Positions 22,599-41,839 are shown, counted from the first letter of the stretch. The stretch: 64,000 nucleotides of DNA from a virus (IMGVR_UViG_3300043423_000073:90700-154699); one strand, 5' to 3'. Numbers and translations are program-made. The notes: generated by a model not told the origin, from the letters alone.

Positions 22599-22675
22599 GG
22601 GCCAGTAGCTCAGTAGGTTAGAGCAAGCGACTCATAATCGCCTGGTCACAGGTTCAAATCCTGTCTGGCCCACCA
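22599..22675 (+). tRNA. tRNA with CAT anticodon, most likely tRNA-Ile2 (lysidine-modified, reads AUA)
   Basis: Acceptor stem GGGCCAG/CTGGCCC, D-arm TAGCTCAG…GGTTAGAGC, anticodon arm GCGA-CTCATAA-TCGC, T-loop GGTTCAAATCC, encoded CCA; C4-G69/C5-G68 pairs as in TilS substrates. Confidence 0.93.
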
Positions 22676-33133: not shown

Positions 33134-34498
<1,365 letters not shown>

Positions 34499-34515
34499 CG
34501 CAGTCGTTACCATAT

Positions 34516-34547
34516 AAGGGGAGGGTGGGCTAGCCCACCCTCCCCTT
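34516..34547 (+). terminator. Probable intrinsic terminator (32-bp perfect palindrome plus T-rich tail)
   Basis: AAGGGGAGGGTGGGCT|AGCCCACCCTCCCCTT then TCTGTTTCTG. Confidence 0.8.
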
Positions 34548-34577
34548 TCTGTTTCTGTCTCAAACCAACTTTACATC

Positions 34578-36197
34578 ATGGCAAAAAAACCCACACCAGC
34601 ACCCACAGAAGCGCCGGCTAAAAAGACTAACAAAAAAGCGCCTACCGCAGCTAAGGAAGCCTTGCCTACCTTAGACGTTCAATCCCTTTTCTCTGCCTCC
34701 TTAGACGAAATCTCTAAACGTCAGGGCTTTGAGGCGTCAAGTCTTGACGTGGCTCCGCCTATCTCTTCCGGCATGTTGGCCGTAGATATGATTCTCGGCG
34801 GCGGCATTCGCCCCTGCATGATGACCGGCGTTGCACAAGAGCAGGCAGGAAAAACTACGCTCGCCTTAACCACGATGGGTTCTGCTATCCGTGCGAATGT
34901 GCCAATTATCGCCTTCGCAGACTATGAGGGCTGCTTCACGGCAGACACGCTTCTCGGTTACGGCAAAGGCAAGCACGCACGCCTTGACGAGTTGTTTGAC
35001 CTGTCCTCTGCCGCCGAATGGAAACCTGGGACTTGGGTAGGTCAGGTTCGGCACGATATTGACACGGTCGAACCCGGACACGCCTACGGTGGAACAGGTG
35101 TGCGGCAAGGTGAGCTTTTCTATCGAGGGATTAAACCCACAACAACCGTCACACTTTCTACTGGCCACCAATTGACCGGCTACAGACACCCGATGTTTGT
35201 ATTCCGCAAAGGTCGTGTGGCTGTGCTTCCTCACGAAGAACTGCAGATTGGCGACCAGGTTTTGGTAGGCCGCCAGTCTCGCGCCCACCCGTTGCGTGTC
35301 GCCGGCGCATTGCGCACTTTCGAGCTTCTGCCTCCCCCACGCTCAGGTGAGAACGCTATCCCCTTTACCCCTACTTTCGAGCTTCTTGTCGACTACGACC
35401 TGTCCTCAGTAACTTCCGTTCTTCTCACTGGGCTTACTGCACCTGTGTTCGACGTGTCCTTGGCCGGTGTTAGCGGAGACATCCTACCTCACTCTATCAT
35501 CACCAACGGCATCGTTACCCACAACTCTACGAAGAACTCAAAGCCCTACGTTCACTCAATTCTGAAAGGCATGGGCGTTAACCTCACCATGGACGAGGTC
35601 TTTGGCAAGAAGTCTAAGGACGGTAAGTGGGAGATTGCACCTCGTGTTCGCTATCGCGCAGAGTCAATTCTCGAACGCTTCTACGATTGGCTGTCTGAGA
35701 TTCTTCGCGAACTCCCAGACAAGCTGTATGTAGAGGAGAAGTGGTGGCTGCGATTCGAGGACAACAAGAAGAACAAGGCCAAGGTTGCTGACTTTGTCGA
35801 CGCGGGTATGACCCGCAAATACGGCAACGGTCTTTGGGTACCTGCCCCTGACGACAAGATACAGGCGCTTATCATTGTTGACAGCTACACGGCTATGCAG
35901 CCTGAGGTGAAAGACGAGGAGAGCATCAGCAACCAGCTGTCAGTGAAGGCCTCGGCGTTCTCAAAGCAGCTTGAGCGTGTTAAAGGCCGCATGGCGCAGA
36001 AAATGGTCACAGTCTACGGTCTTAACCATCTGCGCGATAATCCGATGGCTATGTACGGACCTAAGGAAACTGAGAAGGGAGGCAAGGCTTTGCAACAGTT
36101 CTGTTTTGCAGCCCCCACCCTCCTTATTACCTCGCAGGGAATGCTACGCGCCTCGGAAATGGGAGCACTGTATGCCGAAAACGGGACTAACGAGTAA
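34578..36197 (+). CDS. recA: RecA/UvsX-like recombinase, N-terminal precursor (contains cis intein and split-intein N fragment)
   Basis: ISSGMLAVDMILGGG, Walker A AQEQAGKTT, DYEG, Walker B IIVDS, NHLR…MYGPKETEKGGKAL. Confidence 0.9.
   Translation: MAKKPTPAPTEAPAKKTNKKAPTAAKEALPTLDVQSLFSASLDEISKRQGFEASSLDVAPPISSGMLAVDMILGGGIRPCMMTGVAQEQAGKTTLALTTMGSAIRANVPIIAFADYEGCFTADTLLGYGKGKHARLDELFDLSSAAEWKPGTWVGQVRHDIDTVEPGHAYGGTGVRQGELFYRGIKPTTTVTLSTGHQLTGYRHPMFVFRKGRVAVLPHEELQIGDQVLVGRQSRAHPLRVAGALRTFELLPPPRSGENAIPFTPTFELLVDYDLSSVTSVLLTGLTAPVFDVSLAGVSGDILPHSIITNGIVTHNSTKNSKPYVHSILKGMGVNLTMDEVFGKKSKDGKWEIAPRVRYRAESILERFYDWLSEILRELPDKLYVEEKWWLRFEDNKKNKAKVADFVDAGMTRKYGNGLWVPAPDDKIQALIIVDSYTAMQPEVKDEESISNQLSVKASAFSKQLERVKGRMAQKMVTVYGLNHLRDNPMAMYGPKETEKGGKALQQFCFAAPTLLITSQGMLRASEMGALYAENGTNE
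34932..35525 (+). mobile_element. Cis mini-intein in RecA (198 aa)
   Basis: Starts CFTADTLL, block B-like GHQLTGYRH, ends VFDVSL…NGIVTHN followed by Ser; no LAGLIDADG. Confidence 0.9.
36102..36197 (+). mobile_element. Split intein N-fragment (31 aa)
   Basis: CFAAPTLLITSQGMLRASEM… (intein block A) right after RecA GGKALQQF, then stop. Confidence 0.85.
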
Positions 36198-38082
36198 GAC
36201 CAAAGCCGGCCGGGCAGCTTTGTCTGCTCTCGCCAATGCGGCCAAGGCTAGCAAGGTTATCAGTCCTGAGGTGCGCGCCGCAAGAAGTGCTGCCCACAGT
36301 GAGCAATTGAGAAAGCGCCACGCCAACACCTCGCCGGAGCAAAAGGCAGCAACAGCCGAGAAGCGTAGGCGTTCTCTCCTAGCCTATTGGGCAAGTCGCA
36401 AAGGTAAGCCTGACCCTGAACGGTCCGCCAAGATTAGCGCAGCCCAGAAAAAGATACATGCGGGCCTTACTACGAAAGAGAGGGAGGCGCGCAGGAAGGT
36501 ACTCATTAAGGCAAACCGGCTGTCTAATCTCAAGCCTCACCGTAAGTTGAGTGCCAAAGAGATGGCGGTCGCTAATGAAAAGCGGGCAAAGAGCTGGACC
36601 CAAGATGCCAGACAAGCCCAGGCTGCTCGCTCTGTGCAGGTTGCAAACCTACGCTCGCCGGAGGATAAGGCGGTCATAACGTCCAAGCGGCTCGCCTCCT
36701 ACCTTGGTCGATCCGATGCCGACAAGGCAAAAACGTCGAAAAAGATTCGGCTGGCCTACAGCAGGCTAACGCTTGATGAGAAACAGGCGCTTCTTGCCTG
36801 GCGAAATGCAACCAAGCGTGCGCGCGGTACGTTTAACACTTCTCAGGCAGAGGAAGACGCGTATCAGCTACTCTGCGAATACTTTGAGGCCAGTCGCATC
36901 CATAGGAACTTTAGGAGCCCTGTGTACCCATACGCCTGCGACTTTGTAGTTAATCTGGCGGCGGAGGGCAGGTCGCATATCAAAGACGCCTTGTTCATTG
37001 AGTGCAACTTTCATTGGACGCACGGTGGGGCGCCGTTTGACCCCACTGCTCTGCCGCATCGTCAGGCCTTGCGCCGCTGGCGTACCAAGGCCAAGACCAG
37101 CCCGTACTTTGCGACAGGCATAGGTGTTTGGACGGAACGAGATGTTGCAAAACGAGCATTGGCGCGGAAGAACAATCTGTCGTGGTTCGAGTTCTTTAAC
37201 CTCGACGCGCTTGCCGACTTTCTAAAGCGTGCGCATAAGAGACCGAAGCTTGCCTACACCTACACGGACAACGAGCTTGCAAAGGCCGTTGACCGAGTAG
37301 CACATAAGTCGCCAAGATACGTCAATGAGTTTACGTTCAACTTTATGCCGCACTTTTACCGAAAAGAGTTTGCGCTATGGGGTGACACGATAACTCGTTT
37401 TCGTCTTTTGGCCAATCGTGAAAAGTATTTGCGAAAGCCTGCAGCTAGTCTCACCGACCAAGAGATATTGGCAGGTTTCCGAAAATCGGGCCTAACTCAT
37501 CGCGAGCACTTTAGCCACTTTCCAGTCTGCCTAGTCAAGCAGTTTGTTGATTTAGTTGGTCCTCGTAGTGTGTATGATCCATTCCTCGGGTGGGGCCATC
37601 GCATGGTAGGCTTTGCGGCATTAAACGTTAAATACACTGGTAACGACCTCTGGGACAAGTCATACAAAGGAGGGCGTCGAATTGCGGCGTGGCTTAGCGC
37701 GAACTGGACCGGTGCAAGCTGTAGTGCCTTGCAGGGTGACGCCGCGGTGGTCAAGCCCGACGGTAAGCACGACGCAGTGTTCACTTGTCCTCCTTATCCC
37801 TTAGCCGCTGAGGTGTACGAATCGTCTGCAGGTGCCGAGCATCTGCCGCTAAAAGACTATTGGACATGGTGGGCGAAAGTGGTCAAGGCTGGGGCAGCCA
37901 AGAACGTGAGGAGCATAGGGCTAGTCGTGCCGTCACGGTGGGAGAAAGAATACGCAGAACCGATACTCGGCAAGGGTTTCGAGTTAGTCCACAGGGAGCT
38001 AGTCCTGCCTAACGGCAGAGCAGCAAGCCACCTTAGTGTCAAAAAGAACTTTGAGGTATTTTTAATATGGAGAAAACAATGA
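36172..38082 (+). CDS. Basic repeats + Vsr/DUF559-like endonuclease + amino-DNA-methyltransferase fusion inserted in the split intein
   Basis: GGGAG RBS, ATG 36172; SQAEE…YPYACDF…LFIECNFHWTHG…DVAKR…NNL nuclease; DPFLGWG (motif I) and FTCPPY (motif IV). Confidence 0.8.
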   Translation: MPKTGLTSKTKAGRAALSALANAAKASKVISPEVRAARSAAHSEQLRKRHANTSPEQKAATAEKRRRSLLAYWASRKGKPDPERSAKISAAQKKIHAGLTTKEREARRKVLIKANRLSNLKPHRKLSAKEMAVANEKRAKSWTQDARQAQAARSVQVANLRSPEDKAVITSKRLASYLGRSDADKAKTSKKIRLAYSRLTLDEKQALLAWRNATKRARGTFNTSQAEEDAYQLLCEYFEASRIHRNFRSPVYPYACDFVVNLAAEGRSHIKDALFIECNFHWTHGGAPFDPTALPHRQALRRWRTKAKTSPYFATGIGVWTERDVAKRALARKNNLSWFEFFNLDALADFLKRAHKRPKLAYTYTDNELAKAVDRVAHKSPRYVNEFTFNFMPHFYRKEFALWGDTITRFRLLANREKYLRKPAASLTDQEILAGFRKSGLTHREHFSHFPVCLVKQFVDLVGPRSVYDPFLGWGHRMVGFAALNVKYTGNDLWDKSYKGGRRIAAWLSANWTGASCSALQGDAAVVKPDGKHDAVFTCPPYPLAAEVYESSAGAEHLPLKDYWTWWAKVVKAGAAKNVRSIGLVVPSRWEKEYAEPILGKGFELVHRELVLPNGRAASHLSVKKNFEVFLIWRKQ

Positions 38083-38693
38083 TTGTTGCAGTAGTAGGTC
38101 AGAATGGGCCTGAGGCCGGAGGTAAGTTTGGTTTCATGGGTGAGGCACCTTTGCTGCGTCTTGAGACCGAGTCCGGGCACCTTATCGAAGGCAAGCACGG
38201 TCACAGAGTCTGGGCGTGCAAGGCCGCAACTACCGACTTTGCTTGGTACCCGATCGAGGAGCTCCAACAAACGGACTTTGTCCAATATCGACTCGGGGAC
38301 AACCTTTGGGGCACAAACGAAGTCGCTAACAATGTGGTGCAAGCCTACGTTAAAGACGCAGCAAGTCTTGAGGAAGTTCCTCGTGTCATTCGTACCGCGG
38401 CTGAGCCGCACGTCGTCGCCTTCTTGTCGGCCGTCTTTGGTCACGGCGCTGTGCAAAGTCGTGAGTTCAAAACTACGCAGACTGCCATCGACATTCACCT
38501 CATGCTGTGCAACCTTGGCTACACTGCCGTGCGCATAGAGAAAACAGTAAAACGCGGCGTCCTTGATACGACTCCTCGGCAAATGTTTTCTCGCGTCAAA
38601 GCCAGCACAGTGCTTGGGGGTGCTCACCCTACTTACGACATTAACGTGCCTGGCTCAAGCACAATTGTTACCAACGGCATTGTCAGCCACAAC
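38079..38693 (+). mobile_element. Split intein C-fragment (~205 aa) with degenerate LAGLIDADG remnant
   Basis: LETESGHLIEGKHGH (block B), VPRVI…AFLSAVFGHG…LMLCNLGY remnant, terminal HN/S. Confidence 0.85.
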
Positions 38694-39251
38694 TCTGACG
38701 TTCGCCTCAAGCACACTAGCCGAGCACTTTCTGCCGCACCGTTCAGCCCTAAGCCGGACAAGAACAAAGACTACAATGAGAGCGAAGCCTCCGTTGAGTT
38801 TGACGGTAAAGACGTTTACCGCTACGTGGTTATCAAGGCTATCAAGAACAAGTTGTGGACGCCTCAACGTCAGGCGCCTTTGCGCATCTGGGTTGAAGAC
38901 GGAAGCGGCACTGCCCGCGGTTTCGATCCGGTGTTCGACACCATCTGGTACTTGGTCAATACTGGGCAGATGGCGGGAACAAGAAAGAGCTTCAAGTTAA
39001 ATCTTCACAAGAAGGGCGCAGGGGCCAAACCTATTACGTGGGAGCACTTGAAGCGCTGGGTGCTGGGTGACAAGGCCACAATGACCAAAATCTGTCAGGC
39101 CCTTGGCTACAAGCCTTTCTCGATTCGCACTTTCTGTTTCAGCCAAATGGCTTCTGGCATTTCCGAGGAACTTTACCTTGAGCACCTTAACAGCAAAAAC
39201 AAGAACGGCAGTGAGGAAGAAGAAGGCAGCGGCGGTGGAGACGACGAGTAA
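38079..39251 (+). CDS. recA: Split intein C-fragment fused to the RecA C-terminal half
   Basis: ATGA overlap with upstream stop; IntC ends TYDINV…NGIVSHN then SDVRL (RecA ASVRL), KAIKNK. Confidence 0.88.
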   Translation: MIVAVVGQNGPEAGGKFGFMGEAPLLRLETESGHLIEGKHGHRVWACKAATTDFAWYPIEELQQTDFVQYRLGDNLWGTNEVANNVVQAYVKDAASLEEVPRVIRTAAEPHVVAFLSAVFGHGAVQSREFKTTQTAIDIHLMLCNLGYTAVRIEKTVKRGVLDTTPRQMFSRVKASTVLGGAHPTYDINVPGSSTIVTNGIVSHNSDVRLKHTSRALSAAPFSPKPDKNKDYNESEASVEFDGKDVYRYVVIKAIKNKLWTPQRQAPLRIWVEDGSGTARGFDPVFDTIWYLVNTGQMAGTRKSFKLNLHKKGAGAKPITWEHLKRWVLGDKATMTKICQALGYKPFSIRTFCFSQMASGISEELYLEHLNSKNKNGSEEEEGSGGGDDE

Positions 39252-39837
39252 CCTGCTCAATGAGCTTGAGAACCGCTTTGCTACATTAGCTCACTCAATA
39301 CCACAAGCGAGGCGGCAGAACCGCACGTCTCGCTTCTGGCATACTGTCGAGGCGACTACTCAGGAAAACATTGACAGCCTAAAAGCGTCAATTAAGCCAA
39401 AGCAGCTTGAGCACATTGACGCACCTATCGAGCGTCGCGCCTTGCGCTACAAGAAAGAACTACCGCCTTTGTTGAAGACTAACATTCGGCACATTCGCGA
39501 GTTCTTTCTTACTGAGATTGCACCTTTAACCTTTGCGGTAGGTGGCGGCGTTATCCAGTCGCGAGCCGTTGCCGAGCGAACTATTGAGTCAGGTGTAGAC
39601 TCTTCAATGTTTGCACGCTTTGAGCAAATGGTAGGCAGGGCCGCGACCTTGCGCATGGCCCATTACGTGCTCGATATGTTTGAGCTGCCGCCCGCATTTC
39701 TAAACGACATTATCGGACGCCCGAATGAAAAAGAGCCTAAGTCAAGCCGAGAAAGCCCAACGCCGAGAAGCACGCCTCCACAGCCTGCTCGGCGACCTAA
39801 TGATCCCACATCACGCAGAGCACAACCCAGCCGTTGA
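39235..39837 (+). CDS. Hypothetical protein (start uncertain)
   Basis: Open frame between RecA-C and terminase. Confidence 0.6.
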   Translation: METTSNLLNELENRFATLAHSIPQARRQNRTSRFWHTVEATTQENIDSLKASIKPKQLEHIDAPIERRALRYKKELPPLLKTNIRHIREFFLTEIAPLTFAVGGGVIQSRAVAERTIESGVDSSMFARFEQMVGRAATLRMAHYVLDMFELPPAFLNDIIGRPNEKEPKSSRESPTPRSTPPQPARRPNDPTSRRAQPSR

Positions 39838-41839
39838 CATGACTGCACTCGAAGCTCGCTACGACGACGAGTCCTTCGACATTGTGCGTTTAATGTCGGA
39901 GGCTCGCGACCCGGACACTGGGCTTCTCCGCGATTTGCGTATTGATGACCGTGATCTCAAGGAAGCATCCTCGTTCTACGACTTTGCGTTCACCACCATT
40001 GGCAAAGACGCCCACCCACCGTGGATCGTGCAGGGCTGGACAGGCTTACTTTTATTCGGCGAAGTCTGCACTCATTGCAGCGATCCGCGCTGGCTAAACT
40101 TGGAGTGGTTCGTCGACCACGTGCCCAAAGACAAGCCGTTTGCGGACATTAAAGAAGGGCTAACCATCCTCAAGCATGGTGTGTGCCCAACTTGCGGTCG
40201 CCACAAACACGAGTTGATCAAAGACCACGGTCTTCACAACTATGCTGAGTTGGTCAACGTGCTTGGCCAGCGTAGCGGCAAGTCAGCCAGCGCGGCGTAC
40301 ATGGCTTGCTACCACACCCACCGTTTCCTAAAGTTTCCTCGCCTGGCTGACCACACGAATGCCATGCAGAAGAGTACCGAGCTGACGAGCACCTTTGTGT
40401 CTCTCACCTATGCCAAGGCCATCGGTTTGCTCTGGACGCCCTACTTTAACATGATTAGCGAATCCAGCTGGTATTCTGCTTTCCACAAAATGTTAGACTT
40501 TTACGGCAATAGGTACGGGGTGGAGCTTTATCGCAAGCGAGATGAGTACCTAAAATATTTCCACAAGAACCTTCGCTGCTACCCGACTAACCCAAAATCG
40601 CAAACGCTTCGCGGCGACACCCGAAAGCTGGCTGTGATTGACGAATTGGGTCTCTTCCCACTGCCCTCTGGCAACGACGAGGAAGACGAGAAGTCCGACC
40701 GCGCTAACGCTGACGAGGCGCACAAGTCTCTTACCAACAGCTTGGTAACCGTTCAGGCTATTCAGCGCAAACTCTTGGCAAAAGGTATGAACTGCCCACC
40801 TGCGCTAATGCTGGGCGTGTCTTCACCTATCTCAATGCGGGACAAGGTCATGCGAAGATTGCAGGACGCCAAGACGGTTGAGGGCGAAAAGTACATTCTC
40901 GGTGTTAACCTTGCTACCTGGAATGTCAATCCTTCGATTGATCGCGATACACCAATGATTGCCTTGGCCTATGCCTCCAACCCGGAGAAGGCAGAGCGCG
41001 ACTTTGGTGCCAACCCTCCGAGGGTTAGCCAGACCTTTATCAAGCCGCAGCAAGTACCGCTAACCTTGTTTTCAGGCAAGAACACTCACCACGCTCGCTA
41101 CCAGTACGACATACCTGAGTTCATATACGGTAAGCTTGACCGCTTTTACTCTCCTCGTTGGCCCTCTGTGCTTACGATTGATGCAGGTTACAGCAACAAT
41201 AGCTTTGCCTTAACGGGCGGTCACTTTGACTTTGACACGCAGAAGACAGTGATTTCAACCGTTGTGGAAGTCATGACCCAGGAGGGAAGAAAGATTGACT
41301 TTAACGCAATCTACCTCAACATGATTCTCCCGCTCATTAAAGACTTGAACGCCGTCTTGTTGGTTGCGGACCAATGGCAGTCACTAGACATTCTTAGCAG
41401 AGCAAAGGCAGACAGCGGGCTAGAACCTCTAAATAAGAAGGCGATGCCGCGCTGCATGACCACCCAGTTCAGCCCAAAGCGTAAAGACTTTGACTTCTTT
41501 CTGTCCATGCTGGAAAACGGTAACCTTGTCTTACCGCACCTGTCTAATGCCGATTACACTACTGTTTGCTCAGAGTTTATTGACTACCGAACTCTTGCAG
41601 GACAGCCGGTTAAGCACTGGTTGCTCCAGGCGCTGACCGTGCAGGATCAAGGTGTCGGTAAGGCGCCCGGAAAAGGCCAAGGCTTTACAGATGACTTGTT
41701 CCGGGCGTCTGTACTTCTCACAAAGATTCATCACCCTAAGGTGATGGAGAGGCTAAAGCTGGCCTGTACTTGGCCAAGTGTGGGTGGTGCGGCTAAATCT
41801 TCAATGCCAAAACCCGTTTACGTTTCGAGGAGCTTCTGA
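39725..41839 (+). CDS. terL: Terminase large subunit
   Basis: Walker A GQRSGKS, LRGDT, Walker B AVIDE, nuclease TIDAG…NSFA, TDDL; N-terminal CxxC pairs. Confidence 0.85.
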   Translation: MKKSLSQAEKAQRREARLHSLLGDLMIPHHAEHNPAVDMTALEARYDDESFDIVRLMSEARDPDTGLLRDLRIDDRDLKEASSFYDFAFTTIGKDAHPPWIVQGWTGLLLFGEVCTHCSDPRWLNLEWFVDHVPKDKPFADIKEGLTILKHGVCPTCGRHKHELIKDHGLHNYAELVNVLGQRSGKSASAAYMACYHTHRFLKFPRLADHTNAMQKSTELTSTFVSLTYAKAIGLLWTPYFNMISESSWYSAFHKMLDFYGNRYGVELYRKRDEYLKYFHKNLRCYPTNPKSQTLRGDTRKLAVIDELGLFPLPSGNDEEDEKSDRANADEAHKSLTNSLVTVQAIQRKLLAKGMNCPPALMLGVSSPISMRDKVMRRLQDAKTVEGEKYILGVNLATWNVNPSIDRDTPMIALAYASNPEKAERDFGANPPRVSQTFIKPQQVPLTLFSGKNTHHARYQYDIPEFIYGKLDRFYSPRWPSVLTIDAGYSNNSFALTGGHFDFDTQKTVISTVVEVMTQEGRKIDFNAIYLNMILPLIKDLNAVLLVADQWQSLDILSRAKADSGLEPLNKKAMPRCMTTQFSPKRKDFDFFLSMLENGNLVLPHLSNADYTTVCSEFIDYRTLAGQPVKHWLLQALTVQDQGVGKAPGKGQGFTDDLFRASVLLTKIHHPKVMERLKLACTWPSVGGAAKSSMPKPVYVSRSF

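What the first reader, a model, noticed from the sequence alone, without database searches (positions are those of the whole stretch)
36172..38082. Homing-type endonuclease fused to a DNA methyltransferase: a possible self-protecting selfish element
Seen: ~220 aa of Lys/Arg-rich helical repeats, then a Vsr/DUF559-like nuclease (36841-37203: SQAEE…YPYACDF…LFIECNFHWTHG…DVAKR), then an amino-MTase (DPFLGWG at 37576; variant motif IV CPPY at 37786-37797). Known: Vsr-like endonucleases occupy split-intein gaps, and phage orphan MTases carry DPxxGWG/xPPY motifs. Inference: this one protein may cut intein-less recA alleles (homing) while marking its own genome, act as a one-gene restriction-modification or phage-competition device, or carry an anti-restriction MTase hitchhiking in an essential gene.
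Basis: partly seen in the sequence, partly recalled or inferred. Interest (0 to 1): 0.85.

Follow-up and report, generated by a model that had tools for sequence, protein, structure and literature searches.

The report
Homing nuclease-methyltransferase gene splitting phage recA
A freshwater jumbo phage has its recA gene broken in two by a selfish DNA-cutting gene that also carries an unusual methyltransferase domain, and relatives with unbroken recA supply a natural target on which this uncharacterised nuclease-methylase family could be tested.

Summary
Window 36172-38082 (+) encodes one 636-aa protein with three parts:
- about 215 aa of basic helical repeats;
- a Vsr-fold nuclease with the near-invariant set E227/D257/E277/H284/D324;
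- a helical subdomain plus a class I SAM-methyltransferase fold, with motif I DPFLGWG and motif IV CPPY.

The gene lies in the break of an atypically split intein (31-aa N piece, 209-aa C piece) in a phiRSL1-like jumbo phage recA/uvsX gene.

The fusion is real. An independent metagenome bridges the domain junctions. A 50%-identical ortholog occupies the same recA break. Hundreds of viral relatives share the architecture.

Ten related phages, syntenic at this locus, carry recA uninterrupted exactly at the insertion point (…ALQQF|SDVR…), as expected of a homing element.

The methyltransferase module keeps CPPY in 153 of 155 relatives. It is fused to, or encoded just downstream of, four kinds of homing-type nuclease: Vsr-like, DUF559, LAGLIDADG and HNH.

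What it methylates, and whether it protects the element's own DNA, is untested. Its closest solved folds are tRNA m2G methyltransferases.

This scan has met the same nuclease-methyltransferase family before on other DNA. New here are the split-intein setting and the defined empty target.

The parts
34578..36197 (+). recA/UvsX-like gene, N-terminal piece (539 aa). It holds extein 1, a contiguous mini-intein, extein 2 and the N fragment of the split intein.
   Evidence: Pfam RecA 6e-12 and phrog_97 UvsX-like 2e-29; piecewise tblastn against relatives.
34932..35528 (+). Intein 1, a contiguous 199-aa mini-intein (Cys119 to Asn317, followed by Ser).
   Evidence: Absent from 9 related alleles. Present with about 183 extra residues in L001 and L011. 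NCBIfam intein C-terminal motif.
36102..36194 (+). N fragment of split intein 2 (31 aa, begins CFAAPTLL; block A only).
   Evidence: It starts exactly where relatives' recA continues uninterrupted. It is 54% identical to the L001 counterpart.
36172..38082 (+). The finding: a 636-aa homing-type nuclease-methyltransferase gene. GGGAG lies 6 nt before the ATG.
   Evidence: Orthologs P0004 and P0005 start at the equivalent residue.
36172..36816 (+). Basic Ala/Lys/Arg-rich helical repeat region (residues 1-215), the presumed DNA-binding module.
   Evidence: Composition and recurring units. No Pfam match. Not detectably related to DUF7487 repeats.
36784..37230 (+). Vsr-fold nuclease domain (residues 205-353), with E227, D257, E277, H284 and D324.
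   Evidence: AlphaFold model pLDDT 88.7. VIA Z 8.3 to Vsr 1cw0, 7.5 to I-Bth0305I 3r3p, 6.1 to 3hrl. The residues are near-invariant in 116 domains.
37231..37560 (+). Conserved helical subdomain preceding the methyltransferase core (residues 354-463), with invariant E399, N415 and R416.
   Evidence: Model helices 13-109; invariant columns of A4.
37561..38079 (+). Class I SAM-methyltransferase core (residues 464-636): motif I DPFLGWG at 37576-37596, D492 after strand 2, motif IV CPPY at 37786-37797.
   Evidence: Model pLDDT 91.7, pTM 0.90. Z 17.2 to Trm11 6zxv. Profile E 6e-9 to aTrm11 5e71. CPPY in 153 of 155 relatives.
38067..39251 (+). recA/UvsX-like gene, C-terminal piece (394 aa). Residues 1-209 (38067-38693) are the C fragment of split intein 2, ending in HN. 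The C-extein begins at Ser (38694).
   Evidence: NCBIfam intein_Cterm 5e-5 and phrog_97; junction mapping. An alternative ATG at 38079 overlaps the upstream stop as ATGA.

Best explanation
The gene encodes a modular, free-standing homing endonuclease of the Vsr-like (EDxHD-type) kind. It has lodged inside the coding sequence of an intein in the phage's recA/uvsX gene, breaking that gene into two co-oriented, overlapping genes.

RecA is presumably restored by protein trans-splicing of the 31-aa and 209-aa intein pieces (inferred). The basic N-terminal repeats bind DNA. The Vsr-fold domain, probably as a dimer like I-Bth0305I, cuts recA alleles that lack the insert in co-infecting relatives. Repair then copies intein plus nuclease gene into them (inferred from anatomy and from the empty alleles).

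The C-terminal helical-plus-Rossmann domain is a SAM-dependent methyltransferase of a large, virus-restricted, uncharacterised family marked by an invariant CPPY motif IV. That family travels with homing-type nucleases. My best guess is that the nuclease's DNA-binding module positions it on DNA, where it methylates at or near the bound sites. Virion DNA of element-bearing phages would then arrive pre-marked and spared, while unmarked rival DNA is cut.

Step confidences:
- domain identities and reality of the fusion: about 0.9;
- homing-type mobility: about 0.7;
- DNA as the methyl acceptor: about 0.55;
- protective role: about 0.3.
For: Folds:
- Nuclease model: Z 8.3 to Vsr and 7.5 to I-Bth0305I.
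- D257, E277, H284 and D324 are near-invariant in 116 domains.
- Their spacing is D-11-E in relatives and E-7-H. This equals Vsr D51/F62/H69 as described in PMC2677866.
- Methyltransferase model: pLDDT 91.7, a class I fold.
- All 15 invariant or near-invariant family positions checked are kept in this protein.

Setting:
- It has the fractured-gene layout of PMC2677866.
- No intron model matches.
- There is no terminator-like site between the three genes on their strand.

Mobility:
- Ten related, locally syntenic phage contigs have recA uninterrupted exactly at the junction.
- L001-L004 share the whole insert at 50% protein identity.

Coupling of methyltransferase and nuclease:
- 105 of 155 top relatives carry the same nuclease.
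- Others carry DUF559/MTES_1575, LAGLIDADG or HNH.
- In viral contigs, at least 32 of 45 distinct methyltransferase genes have a nuclease fused or an HNH gene directly upstream.
- Seven of 32 upstream neighbours are the major capsid gene Gp23, a typical free-standing homing-gene position.

DNA-directed leaning:
- Some relatives pass or approach Pfam N6_N4_Mtase.
- Atlas clusters are 77-100% viral, and some are fused to ParB_N or zinc-finger modules.

Reality of the fusion.
Against: - There is no sequence-level match of the nuclease to Vsr, DUF559 or 3r3p. Foldseek gave nothing at or below E 0.001. Z about 8 is only moderately above background.
- Motif IV has Cys where every characterised amino-methyltransferase has D, N or S. 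The chemistry may therefore differ, or the activity may be low.
- The nearest solved folds and sequences are tRNA m2G enzymes, Trm11 and Trm14. Those act on RNA.
- The 2.5-kb insertion should already destroy the target here, so protection is not needed at this locus.
- Nuclease-only relatives are common: P0009-P0011, and 6-8 places per Lak megaphage record. The methyltransferase is therefore not required for the nuclease.
- The extein tree is unresolved, so gain by transfer cannot be told from repeated loss.
- This lineage lacks the second, nearly invariant Cys of motif I: it has DPF rather than DPC.
- No activity data exist.
Confidence: 0.58

Rival explanations
1. Hitch-hiking anti-restriction methyltransferase. 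The C-terminal domain methylates the phage genome broadly, to evade host restriction or other nucleases. It is fused to homing nucleases only because that spreads it. It has no functional tie to the nuclease's own target.
For: The family is virus-restricted. It includes stand-alone forms of 274-380 aa and ParB_N fusions like other phage orphan methylases. The methyltransferase core has no variable target-recognition domain, which fits low specificity.
Against: A broad protective enzyme would be expected mostly alone. Here at least 32 of 45 viral copies are fused to, or directly downstream of, a nuclease of several unrelated types. The conserved helical subdomain with invariant E/N/R suggests a fixed, specific substrate geometry.
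Confidence: 0.15
2. Not a DNA methyltransferase. The domain acts on RNA (like Trm11, Trm14 or METTL5) or on another acceptor. Or it is a non-catalytic base-flipping or DNA-clamping module that only helps target recognition.
For: The best solved matches are tRNA/rRNA amino-methyltransferases (Z 15.8-17.2; E 6e-9). The canonical D/N/S of motif IV is replaced by Cys. P0001 itself fails Pfam N6_N4_Mtase.
Against: It has no THUMP or other RNA-binding domain. It is always tied to DNA-binding modules and DNA nucleases. The SAM-binding residues D469, G473/G475 and D492 are invariant, which argues for catalysis. Beta-class DNA methylases are circularly permuted, so they score low in fold searches whatever the relationship.
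Confidence: 0.15
3. Single-chain restriction-modification-like weapon. The protein mainly degrades competing phage or host DNA at many sites and marks its own. Its place inside the recA intein is an accident of insertion, and it does not drive homing.
For: The nuclease-plus-methyltransferase logic resembles Type IIG enzymes. I-Bth0305I, the characterised Vsr-like relative, tolerates many single substitutions and nicks many lambda sites (PMC3239194).
Against: The exact fractured-gene layout is conserved at 50% protein identity in a second lineage. Clean empty sites occur in ten relatives. Relatives sit next to conserved genes such as the capsid gene. All of these are signatures of site-linked homing elements. 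There is no TRD and no Type IIG family match.
Confidence: 0.08
4. Decaying passenger. The nuclease and/or methyltransferase is no longer active, and the gene persists only because removing it precisely would break recA.
For: Homing genes often decay after fixation. Intein 1 in the same gene has already lost about 183 residues relative to L001 and L011.
Against: The 636-codon frame is intact. Every near-invariant catalytic position of both domains is kept. The 50%-identical ortholog keeps them too.
Confidence: 0.04

Closest known systems
EDxHD / Vsr-like homing endonucleases (I-Bth0305I, PDB 3r3p; 'Vsr-like' ORFs of fractured genes; PMC3239194, PMC2677866)
   Same: It has a Vsr-type nuclease fold (Z 7.5-8.3) and the same Asp / acidic / His / Asp catalytic pattern and spacing. 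It has an N-terminal DNA-binding region. It sits between split-intein halves of a phage DNA-metabolism gene. I-Bth0305I also targets recA.
   Different: There is no detectable sequence similarity to Vsr, DUF559 or 3r3p. The N-terminal region is a long basic repeat array rather than two NUMOD2 motifs. It carries an extra 283-aa methyltransferase half that neither paper mentions ('methyl' occurs 0 times in each).
Fractured genes with split inteins (Dassa et al. 2009), including the atypically split terminase intein
   Same: The layout is N-extein plus N-intein, then a free-standing endonuclease gene, then C-intein plus C-extein, all on one strand. The split comes after block A, leaving a short N piece and a long C piece, as in their terminase case.
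   Different: The host gene is recA/uvsX of a jumbo phage. The ORFs overlap instead of being separated by a 27-51 nt spacer. The C piece is 209 aa, against 122 aa in their terminase case. The endonuclease carries a methyltransferase.
Type IIG / IIL single-chain restriction-modification enzymes (Eco57I, MmeI, BpuSI)
   Same: One polypeptide holds a restriction-fold nuclease and a methyltransferase with motif I before motif IV. The possible logic is the same: cut unmarked DNA and mark one's own.
   Different: There is no C-terminal target-recognition domain, and DNA binding is N-terminal. The nuclease is Vsr-type. Motif IV is CPPY, not NPPY. No family-level match was found. The context is a mobile homing element in a virus, not a defence locus.
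Archaeal/eukaryal Trm11, Trm14/TrmN and METTL5 (m2G / m6A RNA amino-methyltransferases)
   Same: These are the best solved structural and sequence matches to the Rossmann core, from motif I through motif IV (Z 15.8-17.2; E 6e-9).
   Different: There is no THUMP domain or Trm112 context. The first residue of motif IV is Cys. A family-specific helical subdomain precedes the core. The protein is fused to DNA nucleases.

Membership tests
EDxHD / Vsr-like homing endonucleases | Vsr-type restriction-endonuclease-like fold | tested here: met
   Model pLDDT 88.7. VIA-align Z 8.3 to 1cw0 (113 aligned, rmsd 4.2), Z 7.5 to 3r3p (86 of 98 aligned, rmsd 2.7), Z 6.1 to 3hrl. The Foldseek list is weak but dominated by PD-(D/E)xK nucleases.
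EDxHD / Vsr-like homing endonucleases | Catalytic set: Asp (Vsr D51), acidic residue at the Vsr F62 position, His (Vsr H69), Asp (Vsr D97), plus an upstream Glu | tested here: met
   E227, D257, E277, H284 and D324 are present and near-invariant in 116 domains. The spacing is D-11-E in relatives and E-7-H, matching the numbers in PMC2677866. The match rests on spacing and invariance, not on a residue-level superposition.
EDxHD / Vsr-like homing endonucleases | Detectable sequence similarity to Vsr / DUF559 / I-Bth0305I | tested here: inconclusive
   No Pfam or NCBIfam hit at E up to 1. A profile of 9 domains found no Vsr-type chain in the PDB sequences. Sister architectures carry DUF559/MTES_1575 at the same position.
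EDxHD / Vsr-like homing endonucleases | Encoded in an intron, intein or fractured gene, with insert-free alleles in relatives | tested here: met
   It lies between split-intein halves. Ten related contigs have the exact empty junction, with conserved synteny.
EDxHD / Vsr-like homing endonucleases | Site-specific cleavage of the insert-free allele | not testable with these tools
   This needs expressed protein and a recA junction substrate.
Fractured gene with split intein (Dassa 2009) | N-extein/N-intein ORF, free-standing endonuclease ORF and C-intein/C-extein ORF on one strand, with the intein ends intact | tested here: met
   Cys at the intein start (36102); HN then Ser at 38679-38696; intein_Cterm 5e-5. 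Trans-splicing itself was not tested.
Nucleic-acid amino-methyltransferases with (D/N/S)PP(Y/F) (Pfam N6_N4_Mtase and relatives) | Class I SAM-methyltransferase Rossmann fold with motif I glycine loop and an acidic residue after strand 2 | tested here: met
   Model pLDDT 91.7, pTM 0.90, seven-strand topology. More than 500 Foldseek matches at or below E 0.001. Z 17.2. D469, G473, W474, G475 and D492 are invariant.
Nucleic-acid amino-methyltransferases with (D/N/S)PP(Y/F) (Pfam N6_N4_Mtase and relatives) | Motif IV begins with Asp, Asn or Ser | tested here: not met
   It is Cys539. CPPY occurs in 153 of 155 family members and is invariant in A4.
Nucleic-acid amino-methyltransferases with (D/N/S)PP(Y/F) (Pfam N6_N4_Mtase and relatives) | Passes the Pfam PF01555 gathering score | tested here: not met
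   P0001 has no hit. One relative passes (P0100, 30.6 against 26.7 bits) and others fall just below.
Nucleic-acid amino-methyltransferases with (D/N/S)PP(Y/F) (Pfam N6_N4_Mtase and relatives) | Transfers methyl from SAM to an exocyclic amine of DNA | not testable with these tools
   This needs biochemistry or methylome sequencing.
Type IIG / IIL restriction-modification enzymes | N-terminal PD-(D/E)xK nuclease, gamma-class NPPY methyltransferase and C-terminal target-recognition domain | tested here: not met
   The protein ends with the Rossmann core. The DNA-binding repeats are N-terminal. There is no Eco57I or N6_Mtase hit. Motif IV is CPPY.
Trm11/Trm14 tRNA m2G methyltransferases | THUMP RNA-binding domain preceding a DPPY methyltransferase core | tested here: not met
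   No THUMP hit. The region before the core is a family-specific helical subdomain. Motif IV is CPPY.

The most novel reading that the evidence does not exclude
The CPPY methyltransferase module is a new kind of DNA-modifying domain that gives homing endonucleases epigenetic immunity. Element-bearing virions arrive with the nuclease's sites already marked, while rival genomes are cut. That would make it a mobile, single-chain 'homing restriction-modification' unit, with chemistry that may differ from known N6A/N4C enzymes because the catalytic D/N/S is an invariant Cys.
Probability: 0.3. Interest if true: 0.8.

Novelty: new variant of a known kind. Interest (0 to 1): 0.6.

Why it matters
Homing endonucleases are thought to protect their own genome simply by disrupting or mutating their target. 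Restriction-modification systems protect by methylation. Here a large, virus-wide family joins a homing-type nuclease of at least four unrelated folds to one conserved methyltransferase with a non-canonical CPPY catalytic loop. This suggests an unstudied bridge between the two strategies.

I found no paper on it in the searchable library.

This locus is a good entry point for experiments:
- the natural target can be guessed to within a few tens of base pairs (the recA …ALQQF|SDVR… junction);
- empty and filled alleles both exist;
- a diverged ortholog is available for comparison.

It also adds an atypically split recA intein (31 + 209 aa) to the small set of such inteins, which are of practical interest for protein ligation.

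Tried and rejected
- Pfam and NCBIfam gave nothing for P0001 at E up to 1. PHROGs gave only an unknown-function family on residues 466-572.
- Foldseek of the nuclease model against the PDB gave no match at or below E 0.001. The Vsr relationship came only from VIA-align.
- The profile of the nuclease domain against PDB sequences gave only spurious low-complexity hits.
- Group I/II intron or other RNA in 34400-39400: no Rfam match at E up to 1.
- Contiguous intein read through the gap: the two recA pieces share a frame, but no ORF of 50 aa or more spans 36198-38066 in it. Rejected.
- Extein phylogeny, to ask whether the filled alleles are one clade: star-like, with 6 of 8 inner branches open. 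No inference was drawn and the AU test was not run.
- N-terminal repeats against DUF7487 repeats by hhalign: probability 0.06. Offset self-similarity found no fixed period.
- Literature: 'DUF7487' gave 0 papers and 'CPPY' with methyltransferase gave 0. A search on homing endonuclease, methyltransferase domain, fused and phage gave nothing relevant.
- The word-indexed search for short relatives of the C-terminal half returned only a fragment of the same protein. The profile search returned no informative source names. BFVD matches are unnamed or named automatically.
- No RNA holder is listed for the stretch.
- In X2 the two contigs leave 37404-37514 unjoined. This says nothing either way.
- Other split-intein loci with this fusion: none beyond the L001-L004 lineage among 80 viral loci.
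- Complex prediction was not used. No binding claim in this report depends on it.


Full report
**What is there**

Window 36172-38082 (+) is an intact 636-codon ORF. A GGGAG lies 6 nt before its ATG.

The ORF overlaps, by 26 nt, the end of a 539-aa ORF (34578-36197). That ORF is a RecA/UvsX-like recombinase (Pfam RecA 6e-12, phrog_97 2e-29). It also overlaps, by 16 nt, the start of a 394-aa ORF (38067-39251) that carries the rest of the recombinase (phrog_97 2e-9, intein C-terminal motif 5e-5).

The window belongs to a 154,699-bp IMG/VR virus record, which CheckV estimates to be 65% complete. Its large terminase is 52% identical to those of Ralstonia phage phiRSL1 and Burkholderia jumbo phages. 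The DNA is held by two freshwater metagenomes from different studies.

**The recA gene is fractured by a split intein**

I cut the two recombinase ORFs into pieces and laid them on 12 related viral contigs and on the L001-L004 assemblies.

- In ten relatives, extein 2 runs straight into the C-extein. The empty junction reads …ALQQF|SDVR….
- This is the conserved GG-x-AL…F…S-x-R segment of RecA. I recognise it from my own knowledge of E. coli RecA; it was not tested here.
- In the window, a 31-aa piece beginning with Cys follows the Phe and then the ORF stops.
- The downstream ORF begins with 209 residues ending in His-Asn, followed by the Ser of the C-extein.

This is the fractured-gene arrangement of Dassa et al. 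2009 (PMC2677866). The split comes after block A only, like their atypical terminase intein.

Further points on the locus:
- The flanking genes are syntenic in the relatives: a single-strand DNA-binding protein upstream (phrog_15004, 1.5e-71) and the terminase downstream.
- No intron model matches.
- No terminator-like site lies between the three genes on their strand, while a 14-bp-stem hairpin precedes recA at 34516-34547. Co-transcription is therefore likely, but it is inferred.
- The same gene holds a second, contiguous 199-aa mini-intein at 34932-35528. It is absent from nine relatives and about 183 residues longer in L001 and L011.

**The fusion is real**

- In X2, a metagenome from a different study than the possible source sample, one contig covers 35360-37403 with no differences. 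That bridges recA-N, the ORF start, the nuclease and the beginning of the C-terminal half. A second X2 contig covers 37515-39223.
- Orthologs of 647 and 649 aa (50% identity, 98-99% coverage) were assembled from four separate sequencing runs (four contigs shown of five read). They sit in the same place between recA pieces of 719 and 388 aa.
- More distant relatives with the same nuclease-plus-C-terminal build stand free in a phage contig (P0006) and in a bacterial pilus locus (P0007).

**Nuclease domain**

Residues 205-353 fold confidently (pLDDT 88.7).

- Foldseek gave only weak matches, though these were dominated by PD-(D/E)xK nucleases.
- The exhaustive VIA-align search put E. coli Vsr first (1cw0, Z 8.3, 113 aligned). 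The catalytic domain of the homing endonuclease I-Bth0305I came second (3r3p, Z 7.5, 86 of 98 residues, rmsd 2.7). A DUF559-like protein (3hrl) scored Z 6.1.
- In 116 domains of the family, E227, D257, E277 (E or D), H284, D324 and K327 are near-invariant.
- The spacing Asp-11-Glu (in relatives lacking this lineage's 9-residue insert) and Glu-7-His equals Vsr D51/F62/H69. The acidic residue sits at the position that Dassa et al. and Taylor et al. single out for the homing branch.
- There is no sequence-level match to Vsr, DUF559 or 3r3p.

I therefore call it a distinct branch that works like an EDxHD enzyme, rather than a proven member. Lak megaphage records each hold 6-8 places matching this protein, the best of which match the nuclease region only. 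That is typical of multi-copy homing genes.

**N-terminal region**

Residues 1-215 are 25% Lys+Arg and 19% Ala. A helix-type unit recurs at variable spacing. The region has no Pfam match and is not detectably related to the DUF7487 repeats that occupy this position in most relatives. By analogy with the modular DNA-binding arrays of phage homing endonucleases (PMC3239194), I take it to be the DNA-binding module. This is an inference.

**C-terminal half**

A 71-sequence alignment gave a model with pLDDT 91.7 and pTM 0.90. A helical subdomain (model residues 13-109) is followed by the classic seven-strand class I methyltransferase sheet.

- More than 500 solved chains match at or below E 0.001.
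- The best matches by Z are Trm11 (17.2), Trm14/TrmN (16.6-16.7) and METTL5 (15.8). These stand about 2 units above generic methyltransferases.
- A six-sequence profile matches aTrm11 from motif I to motif IV at E 6e-9.
- Invariant positions are D469, G473, W474, G475 and R477 (motif I); D492 (after strand 2, the SAM ribose-binding position in this fold class, from established knowledge); C539 and P541 (motif IV, together with the near-invariant P540 and Y542); E547 and Y549; and E399, N415 and R416 in the helical subdomain.

The domain therefore looks catalytically intact. However, the first residue of motif IV is Cys in 153 of 155 relatives. Every characterised amino-methyltransferase that I know of has Asp, Asn or Ser there. 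This lineage also has Phe in place of the nearly invariant Cys of motif I (DPC).

**How wide the family is, and what it travels with**

The exhaustive profile search found 6,568 cluster representatives at E up to 0.001, and 339 at E up to 1e-30.

- Of the best 155, 105 carry the same Vsr-fold nuclease.
- Others carry DUF559/MTES_1575 with zinc fingers (P0066, P0121), LAGLIDADG (P0109) or HNH (P0209).
- In 45 distinct viral genes, 18 are fused to the Vsr-fold nuclease and 5 to an HNH-like region.
- At least 9 of the stand-alone forms are directly preceded by an HNH-type gene (phrog_1035 endonuclease VII for two of the three scanned; HNH motif visible in the one translated). All but one of these overlap the methyltransferase gene.
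- Seven of 32 upstream neighbours are the major capsid gene.
- Atlas clusters are 77-100% viral. They carry only automatic 'N4-cytosine DNA methyltransferase' names, and PF01555 occurs in a minority of members.
- No source gives an informative name, and I found no paper.

**Reading**

- The anatomy and the distribution of filled and empty alleles make a homing-type element the best explanation for the gene as a whole.
- The tight and repeated association of one methyltransferase module with four unrelated nuclease folds argues that it acts on the same substrate as the nuclease, namely DNA. It also argues that the pairing is functional.
- A methylation-based immunity is attractive. Virion DNA made in the presence of the enzyme would arrive marked, and rival DNA would not.
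- That reading is unproven and has real difficulties. It is not needed at this interrupted site. Nuclease-only relatives are common. The catalytic loop is non-canonical. The nearest solved enzymes act on RNA.
- The rival readings, with what would refute each, are listed separately in the report: an anti-restriction passenger, an RNA-directed or non-catalytic module, a non-homing weapon, and a decaying remnant.

**Relation to earlier notes of this scan**

The same nuclease-methyltransferase family was reported before on other genomes. Those notes said the module is attached to several nuclease kinds, is encoded beside nucleases, and sits after capsid genes. I reached the same three points independently here. 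Two first-stage notes cover this same stretch from the recA side.

New in this instance are the split-intein setting, the ten empty alleles that define the candidate target, and the diverged ortholog at the same site.

Noticed in passing
window 34932-35528: A second, contiguous 199-aa mini-intein (Cys119 to Asn317, then Ser) lies in the same recA gene. It is absent from nine related alleles. In L001 and L011 it is about 183 residues longer, probably with an endonuclease domain that the window's copy has lost.
   Followed up: partly
window 38067-38693: The C fragment of the split intein is 209 aa, about 90 residues more than a minimal intein needs. The extra stretch (roughly residues 95-165) could be the remnant of an older endonuclease or DNA-binding insert. 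Its only family hints are weak: Pfam Intein_splicing at 0.006 for the whole C-gene product, and an intein-bearing terminase family in PHROGs.
   Followed up: no
window 38079-38082: An ATGA overlap joins the stop of the nuclease-methyltransferase gene to a second possible start of the recA C-gene. GGAG lies 6 nt upstream of that start. This suggests translational coupling, and the true start may be 38079 rather than 38067.
   Followed up: no
window 33134-34498: This is a single-strand DNA-binding protein (phrog_15004, 1.5e-71). Its roughly 190-aa C-terminal tail alternates runs of Asp/Glu with PAPKKKP-like basic blocks. Only the first 264 residues or so align in relatives.
   Followed up: partly
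window 34516-34547: A perfect 14-bp-stem hairpin (10 G-C pairs) lies between the SSB gene and recA and is followed by a T-rich tail. It is the only strong terminator-like site on the + strand in 34000-39900.
   Followed up: no
L023, L025, L028, L044, L052, L059 and others (viral contigs), just upstream of the methyltransferase match: Stand-alone CPPY methyltransferase genes of 309-357 aa are preceded by a gene of about 250 aa, overlapping by 1-19 nt. That gene has basic N-terminal repeats and an HNH motif (phrog_1035, endonuclease VII). It is a two-gene version of the fusion.
   Followed up: partly
L008 (Staphylococcus phage Alsa_2, OR354821.1 14873-15859): A 328-aa gene annotated as 'DNA methyltransferase' in Twort-like phages matches residues 448-566 of the query. 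It lies among fragmentary DnaB-like and SbcD-like genes, a region that looks invaded by mobile elements.
   Followed up: no
window 22599-22675: This is the only tRNA gene in the window: tRNA-Met (CAT).
   Followed up: no
P0001 residues 469-475 against family alignment A4: This lineage (P0001, P0004, P0005) has DPF(L/A)GWG, where over 90% of the aligned family members (A4) have DPCxGWG. It therefore lacks one of the two conserved cysteines that flank the predicted SAM pocket.
   Followed up: no
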